From the NCBI RefSeq assembly GCF_057098645.1, contig NZ_CM169472.1: 64,000 nt of DNA, one strand, 5' to 3'. Each line of letters opens with the position of its first letter. Position 1 is the first letter of the stretch. Below are positions 3,001-6,000 of the stretch, in pieces. The position numbers were made by a program.

Positions 3001-6000
3001 AAATCTATCAACGTAAAGGCGATATCTCTATCACGCTGGTGCACAGTGACGATCGTGACGCGTTTGTCGCCCAGGAAGCCGCTCGCTGCCTCGAATGTAA
3101 CTACGTTTGCAGCAAGTGTGTGGATGTCTGCCCGAACCGCGCCAACGTCTCCATTGCGGTCCCAGGCTTCCAGAACCGTTTCCAGACGCTGCACCTCGAC
3201 GCTTACTGTAACGAATGCGGCAACTGCGCTCAGTTCTGTCCGTGGAACGGTAAACCGTACAAAGACAAAATCACCGTCTTCAGCCTGGCGCAAGACTTTG
3301 ATAACAGCAGCAACCCAGGCTTCCTTGTGGAAGATTGCCGGGTACGAGTACGTCTGAATAACCAAAGCTGGGTGTTAAACATCGACAGCAAAGGTCAGTT
3401 TAACAACGTACCACCGGAGCTGAACGATATGTGCCGCATTATCAGCCATGTCCACCAGCATCATCATTATCTGCTGGGCCGCGTGGAGGTGTAATCATGT
3501 TGATTCTGAAGAATGTCACTGCAGTGCAGTTACACCCGGCGAAAGTGCAGGAAGGCGTTGATATCGCTATCGAAAATGATGTGATTGTCGCTATCGGAGA
3601 TGCCCTGACGCAACGCTACCCCGATGCCAGCTACAAAGAGATGCATGGTCGGATTGTGATGCCGGGAATTGTCTGCTCGCACAACCATTTTTACTCGGGG
3701 CTTTCCCGCGGAATTATGGCAAACATCGCCCCTTGCCCGGATTTCATCTCAACGCTGAAAAATCTCTGGTGGCGGCTCGATCGCGCCCTTGATGAAGAGT
3801 CGCTCTATTACAGCGGACTGATTTGTTCCCTGGAAGCGATTAAGAGCGGATGTACATCGGTTATCGATCACCATGCCTCTCCGGCGTATATCGGCGGGTC
3901 GCTCTCCACATTGCGCGACGCATTTTTAAAAGTTGGCCTGCGCGCGATGACCTGTTTTGAAACTACTGACCGTAACAACGGCATCAAAGAGTTACAGGAA
4001 GGTGTAGAAGAAAACATCCGCTTCGCCCGTCAGATTGATGAGGCGAAGAAAGCAGCAACCGAGCCGTATCTGGTGGAAGCACATATCGGTGCTCACGCGC
4101 CGTTTACCGTGCCAGATGCCGGTCTGGAGATGCTGCGTGAAGCCGTGAAAGCCACAGGCCGTGGTTTGCATATTCACGCTGCGGAAGACCTTTACGACGT
4201 TTCCTACAGTCACCACTGGTACGGCAAAGACCTGCTGGCACGACTGGCGCAATTCGATCTCATCGACAGCAAAACGCTGGTCGCTCATGGGCTGTACTTG
4301 TCGAAAGATGACATCGCCCTACTCAATCAGCGCGATGCGTTCCTGGTGCATAACGCCCGTTCAAACATGAACAACCATGTCGGCTACAACCATCACCTTA
4401 GCGACATCCGCAATCTGGCATTGGGAACAGATGGCATTGGTTCGGACATGTTTGAAGAGATGAAATTTGCCTTCTTTAAACATCGCGATGCGGGTGGTCC
4501 GCTGTGGCCTGACAGTTTTGCCAAAGCCCTGACTAACGGTAACGAACTGATGAGCCGCAACTTTGGCGCGAAATTTGGGCTTCTGGAAGCCGGTTACAAA
4601 GCTGATTTAACCATTTGCGATTACAACTCGCCGACGCCGCTGCTGGCAGACAATATCGCCGGGCATATCGCTTTCGGTATGGGCTCAGGCAGCGTTCACA
4701 GCGTGATGGTCAATGGTGTGATGGTCTATGAAGACCGTCAGTTTAACTTCGATTGCGATTCCATTTATGCACAAGCCAGAAAAGCCGCTGCCAGTATGTG
4801 GCGTCGGATGGATGCGCTGGCATAAATGACAGATGCCCTCTTCCCGCAGGGAAGAGGGTTAAATAAGGAAAGAAGATGATTGAACAATTTTTCAGGCCCG
4901 ACTCTGTCGAACAGGCGCTGGAACTGAAGCGCCGCTACCAGGATGAAGCCGTCTGGTTCGCCGGGGGCAGCAAACTCAATGCTACACCAACCCGTACCGA
5001 TAAAAAGATTGCCATCTCCTTACAGGATCTGGAACTGGACTGGGTTGACTGGGATAACGGTGCACTGCGGATTGGCGCAATGTCTCGCTTGCAGCCACTG
5101 CGTGATGCGCGATTTATTCCTGCAGCGCTGCGTGAAGCCCTCGGTTTTGTTTACTCACGCCATGTTCGTAATCAGTCGACCATTGGTGGTGAAATCGCCG
5201 CCCGCCAGGAAGAGTCGGTGCTGCTTCCCGTCCTGCTGGCACTGGATGCTGAACTGGTTTTTGGCAACGGCGAAACGCTGTCAATCGAGGACTACCTGGC
5301 CTGCCCATGCGATCGCCTGCTAACCGAAATTATCATTAAAGATCCGTATCGCACCTGTGCGACCCGCAAAATTAGCCGTTCTCAGGCAGGTTTAACCGTC
5401 GTGACGGCAGCCGTTGCAATAACAGACCACGACGGTATGCGAATTGCGCTGGATGGCGTCGCCAGTAAAGCACTGCGTCTGCACGATGTCGAAAAACAAA
5501 ATCTGGAAGGCAATGCACTTGAACAGGCTGTCGCCAACGACATTTTCCCGCAGGAAGATTTGCGGGGCAGCGTGGCCTATAAACGCTATATCACGGGAGT
5601 TCTGGTAGCCGACCTGTATGCCGACTGCCAACAGGCTGGGGAGGAAGCCGTATGATCATCCACTTTACTTTAAATGGCGCGCCTCAGGAGCTAACCGTTA
5701 ATCCAGGCGAAAACGTGCAAAAGCTGTTGTTTAACATGGGAATGCACTCTGTACGCAACAGTGATGATGGCTTCGGGTTTGCCGGTTCTGACGCAATAAT
5801 CTTTAACGGTAATATCGTTAACGCGTCCTTGCTTATTGCCGCACAGTTAGAGAAGGCAGATATTCGTACCGCAGAATCTCTGGGCAAATGGAACGAGTTA
5901 AGTCTGGTTCAACAGGCAATGGTTGATGTTGGCGTGGTGCAGTCTGGTTATAACGATCCAGCTGCGGCTCTGATTATCACCGATCTTCTCGATCGCATCG

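What the first reader, a model, noticed from the sequence alone, without database searches (positions are those of the whole stretch)
4836..4858. Perfect 10-bp-stem hairpin between ssnA and ygfM
ccctcttccc-gca-gggaagaggg sits 11 nt after the ssnA stop and 18 nt before the ygfM start, with no U-tract. It could set differential mRNA stability or translation of the downstream Mo-hydroxylase genes.
Basis: seen in the sequence. Interest (0 to 1): 0.2.

Follow-up and report, generated by a model that had tools for sequence, protein, structure and literature searches.

The report
Conserved hairpin splitting the ssnA–ygfM operon
The hairpin is real and a hairpin is kept at this gene junction across many bacterial genera even though its sequence changes completely, so it is most likely an ordinary operon-internal RNA stem-loop that separates two enzyme modules of the anaerobic uric-acid pathway, probably by blocking mRNA decay; this function has not been tested.

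Summary
CCCTCTTCCC-GCA-GGGAAGAGGG lies at 4836-4858, with an 11th G·U pair at 4835/4859. It starts 10 nt after the ssnA stop and ends 17 nt before the ygfM ATG. The 50-nt spacer folds at -20.2 kcal/mol (z about -5). The site is single-copy, matches no Rfam family and has no U-tract.

The new result is comparative. Every E. coli allele examined keeps the stem, with compensatory changes in the two pairs next to the loop. In 24 of 27 ssnA-ygfM spacers sampled, from Escherichia to Morganella, Serratia, Edwardsiella and the betaproteobacterium Paludibacterium, a stable hairpin sits at the same place with unrelated stem sequences. A U-rich tail is not conserved.

ygfK/ssnA and ygfM/xdhD are each tightly packed gene pairs. 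The hairpin fills the only real gap, between the two enzymatic modules. A canonical terminator follows xdhD.

My best reading (confidence 0.45) is a decay-boundary hairpin of the malE-malF type, acting as a 3'-exonuclease barrier for ygfK-ssnA. Rivals are translational tuning of ygfM, a weak terminator or pause, and a papA-like 5' stabiliser. No 3'-end or half-life data exist for this normally silent operon.

It is a new member of a known kind, of low to moderate interest.

The parts
396..3494 (+). ygfK, the flavoenzyme that reduces yanthine; first gene of the unit
   Evidence: ORF and RefSeq annotation; biochemical function from PMC12507026
3497..4825 (+). ssnA, an amidohydrolase that starts 2 nt after ygfK; stop TAA at 4823-4825
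   Evidence: The C-terminus ...MWRRMDALA* is conserved in orthologues
4826..4834 (+). Unpaired spacer between the ssnA stop and the foot of the hairpin (ATGACAGAT)
   Evidence: The spacer is 4-12 nt in most taxa and its sequence is not conserved
4835..4859 (+). Hairpin with 11 pairs: 5' arm G-CCCTCTTCCC, loop GCA (4846-4848), 3' arm GGGAAGAGGG-T. The perfect 10-bp core is 4836-4858
   Evidence: Pairing is kept in all E. coli alleles sampled and in most other genera
4860..4875 (+). Unpaired A-rich leader of ygfM containing the likely Shine-Dalgarno AAGGA (4865-4869)
   Evidence: Unpaired in the minimum-energy and centroid folds. A purine-rich (G/A)AGG motif is conserved before the ATG in all taxa. 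The Shine-Dalgarno assignment is inferred
4876..5655 (+). ygfM, the FAD-binding subunit of the urate reductase; its end overlaps the xdhD start by 4 nt
   Evidence: function
5652..8522 (+). xdhD, the Mo/Fe-S subunit; last gene of the unit
8532..8547 (+). Canonical terminator-like hairpin GGCCGC-TTCG-GCGGCC followed by TGTTTCTCTG, 9 nt after the xdhD stop. Included as context and contrast with the internal hairpin

Best explanation
The hairpin is an operon-internal RNA stem-loop on the ygfK-ssnA-ygfM-xdhD mRNA. It marks the boundary between two modules: YgfK+SsnA (yanthine reduction and ring opening) and YgfM+XdhD (urate reductase). The most likely mechanism is a decay boundary of the malE-malF kind. 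After an endonucleolytic cut in the unpaired A/U-rich ygfM leader or early ygfM coding region, 3'-to-5' exonucleases (PNPase, RNase II) degrade back to the foot of the roughly -20 kcal/mol stem and stop there. That would leave a translatable ygfK-ssnA fragment that outlives ygfM-xdhD, so the two modules are expressed at different levels from one promoter. The hairpin lies just beyond the footprint of a ribosome terminating at the ssnA stop, and it leaves the ygfM ribosome-binding site free. Shown here: the structure, its conservation with changing sequence, the absence of a conserved U-tract, its position between modules, and its single-copy status. Inferred, not shown: co-transcription across the junction, the cleavage, the exonuclease block and any stoichiometric effect.
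For: (1) The hairpin is stable: -20.2 kcal/mol, z -5, and 72% of the folding ensemble. (2) Conservation within E. coli. The two major spacer alleles, found in 3977 and 1219 genomes, together cover all 5177 genomes that carry the locus. Both fold, as do the minor alleles. The eight basal pairs are invariant. The two apical pairs change C-G to U-A or U·G, and the outer G·U changes to A-U or C-G. In alignment A4, 98.9% of cells are paired against 93.4% in shuffles (0/500) and at most 74% when the partner is slid. (3) Conservation across genera. 24 of 27 orthologous spacers hold a hairpin, typically 7-14 bp. 22 of 27 fold better than at least 97% of their shuffles. The stems are as different as CGCCTCCCG, CCTCCCCGC, GCCGGAT, GGCCTGCGGT and GCGCCTCGACC. 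(4) There is no terminator signature. Only 0-3 T occur in the 8 nt after the stem in 26 of 27 taxa, the scan gives no terminator call at the site, and a canonical terminator follows xdhD. (5) No promoter-like site lies in the ssnA 3' end, and ygfK/ssnA and ygfM/xdhD are 2 nt apart and 4 nt overlapping in E. coli, and similarly packed in all taxa. This makes the spacer the only gap between the two modules defined biochemically in PMC12507026. (6) This class is documented genome-wide in E. coli. Protective internal structures without terminator signature are conserved in Salmonella and Enterobacter in 75-91% of shared cases (PMC5927463). (7) One weak hint: in uropathogenic E. coli RNA-seq, log2 fold change is -5.8 for ygfK and -5.3 for ssnA but -3.9 for xdhD and -3.6 for xanQ, a step across the junction (PMC7439467 supplement).
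Against: There is no direct RNA evidence. The Term-seq tables of PMC7815308 list no 3' end at ssnA or ygfM, and the operon is absent from the differential-decay tables of PMC5927463. Both studies used aerobic cultures in which the operon is barely expressed, so this is absence of data rather than a negative result. The expression step could equally reflect partial termination or a second promoter. A weaker hairpin (5-7 bp, 11-13 nt loop) persists upstream of ygfM in Kluyvera and Klebsiella aerogenes, where ssnA has been deleted. That fits either slow decay of a now useless element or a role tied to ygfM rather than ssnA. Klebsiella indica and Arsenophonus lack a convincing hairpin. The strand on which the structure is selected could not be resolved: sense versus antisense folding energy was 15 versus 11 taxa, p = 0.5.
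Confidence: 0.45

Rival explanations
1. The hairpin tunes or insulates translation of ygfM. It sits 5-6 nt upstream of the Shine-Dalgarno sequence, where it would shape the ribosome standby site and either limit de novo initiation or shield the ribosome-binding site from pairing with upstream sequence. This would set YgfM/XdhD synthesis relative to SsnA. A ribosome terminating at ssnA reaches only the first pairs of the stem.
For: The distance from stem to ATG is 15-19 nt in 22 of 27 taxa, and from stop to stem 6-9 nt in 21 of 27. The Shine-Dalgarno sequence and ATG stay unpaired. A weaker hairpin persists before ygfM where ssnA is lost. In Enterobacteriaceae the 5' arm resembles an anti-Shine-Dalgarno sequence (CU-rich) and the 3' arm resembles a Shine-Dalgarno sequence (GGAG/GAGG). 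PMC5927463 suggests protective structures may also lower downstream initiation.
Against: The Shine-Dalgarno sequence and start codon are not in the stem, so this is not classical sequestration. The tight spacings are also what a minimal spacer gives under any model. The pyrimidine/purine polarity disappears outside Enterobacteriaceae, as in Buttiauxella, Serratia and Morganella. Transition-only compensatory drift explains that polarity by descent.
Confidence: 0.2
2. The hairpin is a weak or partial transcription terminator, or an RNA polymerase pause hairpin, that lowers read-through into ygfM-xdhD.
For: The stem is G+C-rich with 10-11 pairs and is followed by UU. Edwardsiella and Hafnia orthologues carry a T-run after the stem: GCGCTTTTGC, and 5 T in 8 nt. 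The expression step across the junction is compatible with this.
Against: In E. coli only 2-3 of the 8 nt after the stem are T. The B2-type E. coli allele, Atlantibacter, Trabulsiella and Pluralibacter have an A- or G-rich tail with 0-2 T. The terminator scan does not call the site, although it calls the xdhD terminator. No 3' end is reported at the site.
Confidence: 0.12
3. The hairpin is a papA-type 5' stabiliser. RNase E cuts upstream of the stem, and the hairpin then becomes the 5' end of a ygfM-xdhD mRNA that is protected from 5'-end-dependent RNase E attack.
For: The hairpin is about 17 nt upstream of the ygfM ATG. It is retained, in weaker form, where ssnA is gone. The model is documented for papBA and for 7 of 10 E. 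coli operons with a stabilised downstream gene.
Against: The only unpaired stretch upstream is 4-12 nt. In many taxa it is G+C-rich (CCCACG, AACCTGC, CCCTGTC) and lacks an RN|WUU-like site. The weak expression hint points to lower, not higher, downstream signal.
Confidence: 0.1
4. The feature is a DNA-level palindrome: a binding site for a dimeric regulator, or a functionless inverted repeat kept perfect by intrastrand template switching during replication.
For: It is a perfect 23-bp palindrome. The antisense strand folds almost as well as the sense strand. The sense/antisense asymmetry is not significant across taxa. Template switching can mimic compensatory change.
Against: The stem sequence is unrelated between genera while the position is fixed, which a sequence-specific protein site would not allow. 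Independent persistence at one gene junction in more than 12 genera is not expected for a neutral repeat. G·U pairs (7 alignment cells) outnumber C·A (1 cell, plus 1 more in strain cM8a) in Escherichia alleles.
Confidence: 0.06

Closest known systems
malE-malF intercistronic protective structure, and the genome-wide class of operon-internal 3' protective hairpins (Newbury et al. 1987; Dar & Sorek 2018, PMC5927463)
   Same: It is a stable stem-loop just downstream of an upstream cistron inside a polycistronic unit. It has no terminator U-tract, and the structure is conserved in orthologous operons while the sequence drifts.
   Different: The malE-malF element is made of multi-copy REP sequences, whereas this one is single-copy. 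No 3' end, half-life difference or exonuclease dependence has been measured here.
papB-papA intercistronic 5' stem-loop (Bricker & Belasco 1999, cited)
   Same: It is a hairpin in the spacer a short distance upstream of the downstream cistron's ribosome-binding site.
   Different: papA needs an RNase E cut in an unstructured stretch upstream of the hairpin. Here that stretch is only 9-10 nt and is not A/U-rich in most taxa.
Intrinsic (Rho-independent) terminator, for example the one 9 nt after xdhD at 8532-8547
   Same: It is a G+C-rich stem with a short loop immediately after a stop codon.
   Different: It has no U-tract, and none is conserved in orthologues.
RBS-sequestering translational-coupling hairpins
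   Same: In Enterobacteriaceae, a CU-rich (anti-Shine-Dalgarno-like) arm pairs with a GA-rich (Shine-Dalgarno-like) arm between two cistrons.
   Different: The functional Shine-Dalgarno sequence (4865-4869) and the ATG lie outside the stem and are unpaired. The Shine-Dalgarno-like arm ends 17 nt before the ATG, too far to serve it.

Membership tests
Operon-internal protective (decay-barrier) hairpin | Stable stem-loop within a co-transcribed unit, just 3' of the stabilised cistron | tested here: met
   The hairpin folds at -20.2 kcal/mol and starts 9-10 nt after the ssnA stop. There is no promoter-like site in the ssnA 3' end. Co-transcription itself is inferred.
Operon-internal protective (decay-barrier) hairpin | No intrinsic-terminator signature | tested here: met
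Operon-internal protective (decay-barrier) hairpin | Structure conserved in orthologous operons | tested here: met
   24 of 27 spacers from more than 12 genera; compensatory changes within E. coli
Operon-internal protective (decay-barrier) hairpin | A stable RNA 3' end at the foot of the hairpin | not testable with these tools
   No entry for ssnA or ygfM in the Term-seq tables of PMC7815308; the operon is not expressed under those conditions
Operon-internal protective (decay-barrier) hairpin | The upstream segment is more abundant or longer-lived than the downstream segment | not testable with these tools
   Only an indirect hint exists: log2 fold change -5.8/-5.3 for ygfK/ssnA against -3.9 for xdhD. 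The operon is not listed in the PMC5927463 tables.
Intrinsic terminator | U-rich tract (about 5 or more of 8 nt) directly 3' of the stem | tested here: not met
   2-3 T in 8 nt in E. coli and 0-3 T in 26 of 27 taxa; the scan does not call the site
REP/BIME or other repeated extragenic palindromes | Many copies per genome sharing a consensus | tested here: not met
   One place per genome in 3977 and 1219 genomes; no other copy in the window at up to 3 mismatches
RBS-sequestering coupling hairpin | The Shine-Dalgarno sequence and/or start codon of the downstream gene is paired in the stem | tested here: not met
   Positions 4860-4878 are unpaired in the minimum-energy and centroid folds
papA-type 5' stabiliser | RNase E cleavage in an unstructured stretch just upstream of the hairpin | tested here: inconclusive
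   The spacer is 4-12 nt and G+C-rich in many taxa; no 5'-end data are available
Any curated RNA family (Rfam 15) | Match at the family's gathering score | tested here: not met
   The best hit is mir-320 at 18.7 bits against a gathering score of 55.5, E = 0.3, which is a chance match
Small protein-coding ORF (MTDALFPQGRGLNKERR, 4826-4879) | Start codon and reading frame conserved | tested here: not met
   The ATG is ATA in the B2-type allele, the frame is shifted in O157:H7, and the ORF is absent in other genera

The most novel reading that the evidence does not exclude
The ssnA-ygfM hairpin could be a deeply conserved 'module separator' that fixes the YgfK/SsnA to YgfM/XdhD ratio of the anaerobic urate pathway, present from Enterobacteriaceae to Morganellaceae and a betaproteobacterium. 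In Enterobacteriaceae it might do this by more than passive exonuclease blocking. Its anti-Shine-Dalgarno-like and Shine-Dalgarno-like arms, placed exactly at the leading edge of a ribosome terminating on ssnA, could hand ribosomes over to, or withhold them from, the ygfM start 17 nt downstream. The gcvH-gcvP spacer in the same window carries two hairpins of the same CU/GA type, which leaves open a small class of such elements.
Probability: 0.1. Interest if true: 0.45.

Novelty: new member of a known kind. Interest (0 to 1): 0.25.

Why it matters
The ygfK-ssnA-ygfM-xdhD genes were recently shown to carry out the first steps of anaerobic uric-acid degradation by gut bacteria (PMC12507026). That pathway is now being engineered for urate-lowering strains. 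If the hairpin sets the relative dose of the urate-reductase module and the yanthine-reduction/hydrolysis module, it becomes a design parameter for such constructs. It would also add a phylogenetically deep, sequence-free example to the catalogue of operon-internal decay boundaries. In itself it is an ordinary kind of element. Its main value is a clean, testable case with natural compensatory variants already available in E. coli strains.

Tried and rejected
- **Rfam scan:** the scan of 4300-5400 at E up to 10 gave only chance hits.
- **Covariance model:** model R1, built from eight Escherichia/Citrobacter hairpins, recovered only close relatives plus Citrobacter R56. It did not recover the Atlantibacter, Trabulsiella or Pluralibacter stems, so it gave no cross-genus structural alignment.
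- **MAFFT alignments:** alignments of the spacers across genera (A2, A3) put the stems 1-2 columns out of register. I therefore did not compute formal covariation between genera. I rely instead on per-taxon folding against shuffles.
- **Metagenome scan:** a scan with a degenerate flank pattern for the '...ALN*' clade returned a single contig identical to the Pluralibacter spacer.
- **Strand test:** comparing sense and antisense folding energy over 27 spacers gave 15 versus 11, p = 0.51, which is uninformative.
- **Mini-ORF:** a 17-codon ORF fills the spacer exactly (TAA-ATG ... ATGA). I rejected it as fortuitous because its start codon is lost in the B2-type allele, it is frameshifted in O157:H7, and it is absent elsewhere.
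- **Repeat family:** the site is single-copy.
- **Wider hairpin class:** a scan of the window (read 5'->3' on the + strand, so hairpins whose G·U pairs form only in minus-strand transcripts are missed) for a pyrimidine-arm/purine-arm hairpin class found only this site, plus two purine-first hairpins at 40206 and 40598.
- **Sigma-54 promoter:** TGGCAT at the ssnA stop has no GC at the required N10 spacing. This was checked by eye on the sequence, not with a tool.
- **Published data:** Term-seq and differential-decay supplements contain nothing at this junction, and I found no E. coli transcript map for urate-induced conditions.
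Full report
**Observation.** The window is E. coli. Positions 4400-5300 are 100% identical to O145:H28 genomes, and 5177 of 5426 complete E. 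coli genomes carry the region. RefSeq annotates ygfK (396-3494), ssnA (3497-4825), ygfM (4876-5655) and xdhD (5652-8522). One search shows ccctcttccc-gca-gggaagaggg at 4836-4858, as reported.

The ssnA stop is 4823-4825, so the gap to the stem is 10 nt rather than 11. The ygfM ATG is 4876, so the gap after the stem is 17 nt rather than 18. Folding adds a G4835·U4859 pair. The 50-nt spacer has a minimum free energy of -20.2 kcal/mol, and that structure holds 72% of the ensemble. Shuffles give -9.0 +/- 2.2 (z -5.0, 0 of 200 as good; a 90-nt context is).

Perfect hairpins of at least 10 bp are expected 0.45 times per shuffled window, and the window has five. The hairpin is therefore non-random, but it belongs to a recurring type of genomic feature.

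**What it is not.**
- It matches no Rfam family.
- It is not a repeated element. There is one place per genome and no second copy in the window.
- It is not an intrinsic terminator by the usual criteria. Only 2 of the 8 nt after the 11-pair stem (3 after the perfect 10-bp stem) are T, and the scan does not call the site. The same scan does call a canonical hairpin with a T-rich tail 9 nt after xdhD, at 8532-8547.
- No sigma-70-like promoter lies in the ssnA 3' end.
- The Shine-Dalgarno region (AAGGA, 4865-4869) and the ATG are unpaired, so it is not an RBS-sequestering hairpin.
- A 17-codon ORF (MTDALFPQGRGLNKERR) fills the spacer exactly, from TAA-ATG to ATGA. However, its ATG is ATA in the B2-type allele, it is frameshifted in O157:H7, and it is absent in other genera. 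I treat it as fortuitous.

**Variation inside E. coli.** The spacer exists as two main allele families.
- The K-12/O145-like family is found in 3977 genomes.
- A second family, typified by MS8345 and AZ146, is found in 1219 genomes.

Together these cover every genome that has the locus. Aligning representatives (A1; A4) shows several things.
- The eight basal pairs (CCCTCTTC/GAAGAGGG) never vary.
- The two apical pairs change C-G to U-A (MS8345; N96 and E69 at the closing pair) or to U·G.
- The outer G·U becomes A-U or C-G.
- O157:H7 has lost one G, giving a 10-pair stem (nine of them Watson-Crick, plus the outer G·U) with a 4-nt loop.
- Strain cM8a carries a single C·A mismatch near the apex and still folds at -14 kcal/mol.

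On A4, 98.9% of cells are standard pairs, against 93.4% in column shuffles (0 of 500 reach the observed value) and at most 74% when partners are slid. Two pairs carry double-sided changes. The sequences are closely related and only the apex varies. This is therefore supportive rather than conclusive, and template switching in a palindrome could mimic it.

**Other genera.**

*Sources.* A scan of species-representative genomes with YgfM and look-ups of YgfM homologues gave 27 distinct ssnA-ygfM spacers of 42-72 nt.

*The stems.* A hairpin occupies the same place in 24 of them, and the stems share no detectable sequence homology:

| Taxon | 5' arm / 3' arm |
|---|---|
| Citrobacter R56 | CCCTCTCCT / AGGAGAGGG |
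| C. freundii M-21 and Atlantibacter | CGCCTCCCG / CGGGAGGCG |
| Trabulsiella | CCTCCCCGC / GCGGGGAGG |
| Pluralibacter | TTTCTCCCCC / GGGGGAGAAA |
| Pseudocitrobacter | CCCTCTCC / GGAGAGGG |
| An unnamed 68%-identity lineage | GTCTCTCCGCA / TGCGGAGAGAC |
| Edwardsiella | GCGCCTCGACC / GGTCGAGGCGC |
| Buttiauxella | GCCGGAT / ATCCGGC |
| Serratia | GTTGCCGC / GCGGCAAC |
| Hafnia | ACCGCCCCT / AGGGGCGGT |
| Morganella | GGCCTGCGGT / ACCGCAGGCC |

The betaproteobacterium Paludibacterium has a larger structure at the same place.

*Significance and spacing.* Twenty-two of the 27 spacers fold better than at least 97% of their own dinucleotide shuffles. The stem starts 6-9 nt after the stop in 21 of 27 taxa and ends 15-19 nt before the ATG in 22 of 27.

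*U-tract and exceptions.* The 8 nt after the stem contain 0-3 T in 26 of 27 taxa. Hafnia (5 T) and, through the TTTT at the stem's end, Edwardsiella look terminator-like. Klebsiella indica (6 bp, weak) and the reduced-genome symbiont Arsenophonus (none) are the exceptions, and Citrobacter MGH106 has one C·A mismatch.

*Taxa without ssnA.* In Kluyvera and Klebsiella aerogenes, ssnA has been deleted but a remnant of its 3' end remains. A weaker hairpin (5-7 bp, 11-13 nt loop) still precedes the ygfM ribosome-binding site.

*Arm polarity.* The pyrimidine-5'/purine-3' polarity seen in Enterobacteriaceae is lost in more distant families. It is what transition-only compensatory drift (C-G to U·G to U-A) would preserve by descent.

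**Context.** In E. coli, ygfK/ssnA are separated by 2 nt and ygfM/xdhD overlap by 4 nt. In the other taxa the pairs are similarly packed: a gap of 2-5 nt or a 4-nt overlap for ygfK/ssnA, and a 4-nt overlap or a gap of up to 3 nt for ygfM/xdhD. The hairpin spacer is thus the only real gap in the unit. It coincides with a biochemical boundary.
- XdhD-YgfM form the urate-to-yanthine reductase.
- YgfK and SsnA carry out the thermodynamically coupled reduction and ring opening of yanthine (PMC12507026).

**Mechanism.** The features found are a stable stem, free sequence, no U-tract, a position just past the stop codon, a free downstream ribosome-binding site, and conservation across orthologous operons. 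These are the features of the operon-internal protective structures described for malE-malF and, genome-wide, by Dar & Sorek. In that study such structures lack terminator signatures and are conserved in 75-91% of shared cases (PMC5927463).

I therefore favour a decay-boundary role with confidence 0.45. An endonucleolytic cut downstream would be followed by 3' exonucleolytic trimming back to the stem, leaving a longer-lived ygfK-ssnA fragment. Candidate RN|WUU-like sites, identified by eye, are GG|UUA at the stem's foot and AA|UUU in ygfM codons 4-6.

The geometry fits this. By established ribosome footprints (my own knowledge, not a tool result), a ribosome with the ssnA stop codon in its A site covers roughly 9 nt beyond the stop. 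The stem therefore begins at the closest position that does not obstruct termination.

One weak hint comes from published uropathogenic E. coli RNA-seq. The log2 fold change is -5.79 for ygfK and -5.32 for ssnA, but -3.90 for xdhD and -3.65 for xanQ (PMC7439467 supplement).

**Rivals.**
- **Translational tuning or insulation of ygfM (0.2).** This fits the constant stem-to-ATG distance and the retention of a hairpin where ssnA is lost.
- **A weak terminator or pause (0.12).** This fits Edwardsiella and Hafnia, but not the A- or G-rich tails elsewhere.
- **A papA-type 5' stabiliser (0.1).** This is limited by the short upstream spacer, which is often G+C-rich.
- **A DNA-level or neutral palindrome (0.06).** This is disfavoured by position-fixed, sequence-free conservation in more than 12 genera.

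I could not resolve from sequence alone the strand on which the structure is selected. The sense strand folds better in 15 taxa and the antisense in 11 (p = 0.51). G·U pairs do outnumber C·A pairs in Escherichia alleles.

**Direct evidence is missing.** E. coli Term-seq tables list no 3' end at ssnA or ygfM. The operon is absent from the differential-decay tables. I found no transcript map for urate-induced anaerobic conditions. These absences reflect lack of expression in the conditions used and are not negative results.

**Verdict.** It is a new member of a known kind, the operon-internal protective or boundary hairpin. Interest is low to moderate (0.25).

Noticed in passing
window 16850-16919: A perfect 35-bp tandem duplication (GCTGTAACTACACCACCAACCGTTACAACCTCTAT x2) lies inside the urate transporter gene uacT. 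It is absent from O145 strain RM9872. It shifts the frame so that the ORF ends at 16950 instead of about 17186. This strain probably carries a uacT pseudogene next to the urate-degradation cluster.
   Followed up: partly
window 32390-32506 (minus strand), gcvH-gcvP spacer: Three consecutive hairpins without U-tracts sit inside the gcvTHP operon (-44.4 kcal/mol, z -4.4). Two have the same CU-rich 5' arm and GA-rich 3' arm as the ssnA-ygfM hairpin: CCUCUUCU-gcgg-GGGAGAGG and CUCUCUUC-guaa-GGAGAGAG. Covariance model R1 gave a weak hit here. This may be a second operon-internal boundary structure of the same style.
   Followed up: partly
L015, L016, L018 (Kluyvera) and L032 (Klebsiella aerogenes), about 60 nt upstream of ygfM: ssnA and ygfK are missing upstream of ygfM. 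Genes resembling xdhABC lie about 400 nt upstream instead. A remnant of the ssnA 3' end and a weakened hairpin (5-7 bp, 11-13 nt loop) persist.
   Followed up: partly
L033 (Edwardsiella) and L036 (Hafnia alvei), ssnA-ygfM spacer: In these two genera the junction hairpin is followed by a T-run (GCGCTTTTGC, and 5 T in 8 nt). In some lineages the same position may therefore act as a true intrinsic terminator or attenuator.
   Followed up: no
L027 (NZ_JAUFQN010000014.1, 'Flavobacterium paronense' CECT 8460, 7.7-kb contig): The ssnA-ygfM junction on this contig is identical to E. coli, including the hairpin. This is almost certainly E. coli contamination in that assembly.
   Followed up: no
P0090 (protein from an E. 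coli assembly): A 385-aa gene call carries an Amidohydro_1 domain and matches YgfM at 100% identity over 54% of the query. This is an apparent SsnA-YgfM fusion call, implying a deletion or frameshift across the hairpin spacer in some strain.
   Followed up: no
window 8532-8547: A canonical terminator-like hairpin (GGCCGC-TTCG-GCGGCC followed by TGTTTCTCTG) lies 9 nt after xdhD. It is also called on the minus strand. It suggests that the ygfK-xdhD unit ends here and that xanQ has its own 164-nt leader.
   Followed up: partly
window 52922-64000: The window stops matching O145 strain RM9872 after 52921. In RM9872 a P4-like island follows, with integrase, primase-helicase and polarity-suppression protein genes. 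I did not examine the content of the window beyond this point.
   Followed up: no
window 26672-26702, 46815-46843, 50986-51009, 54728-54750: These are other perfect hairpins of 10-12 bp in the window. The one at 26672 (GTCGCATCAGGC...GCCTGATGCGAC), between ygfZ and trhA, looks REP-like. The one at 50986 lies just after the yggE stop, in the yggE-srsR spacer.
   Followed up: no
window 40206-40223 and 40598-40615: Two copies of a purine-first hairpin, GGGAGGA-nnnn-TCCTCCC, sit about 390 nt apart in the duplicated ibsC toxin-antitoxin region.
   Followed up: no
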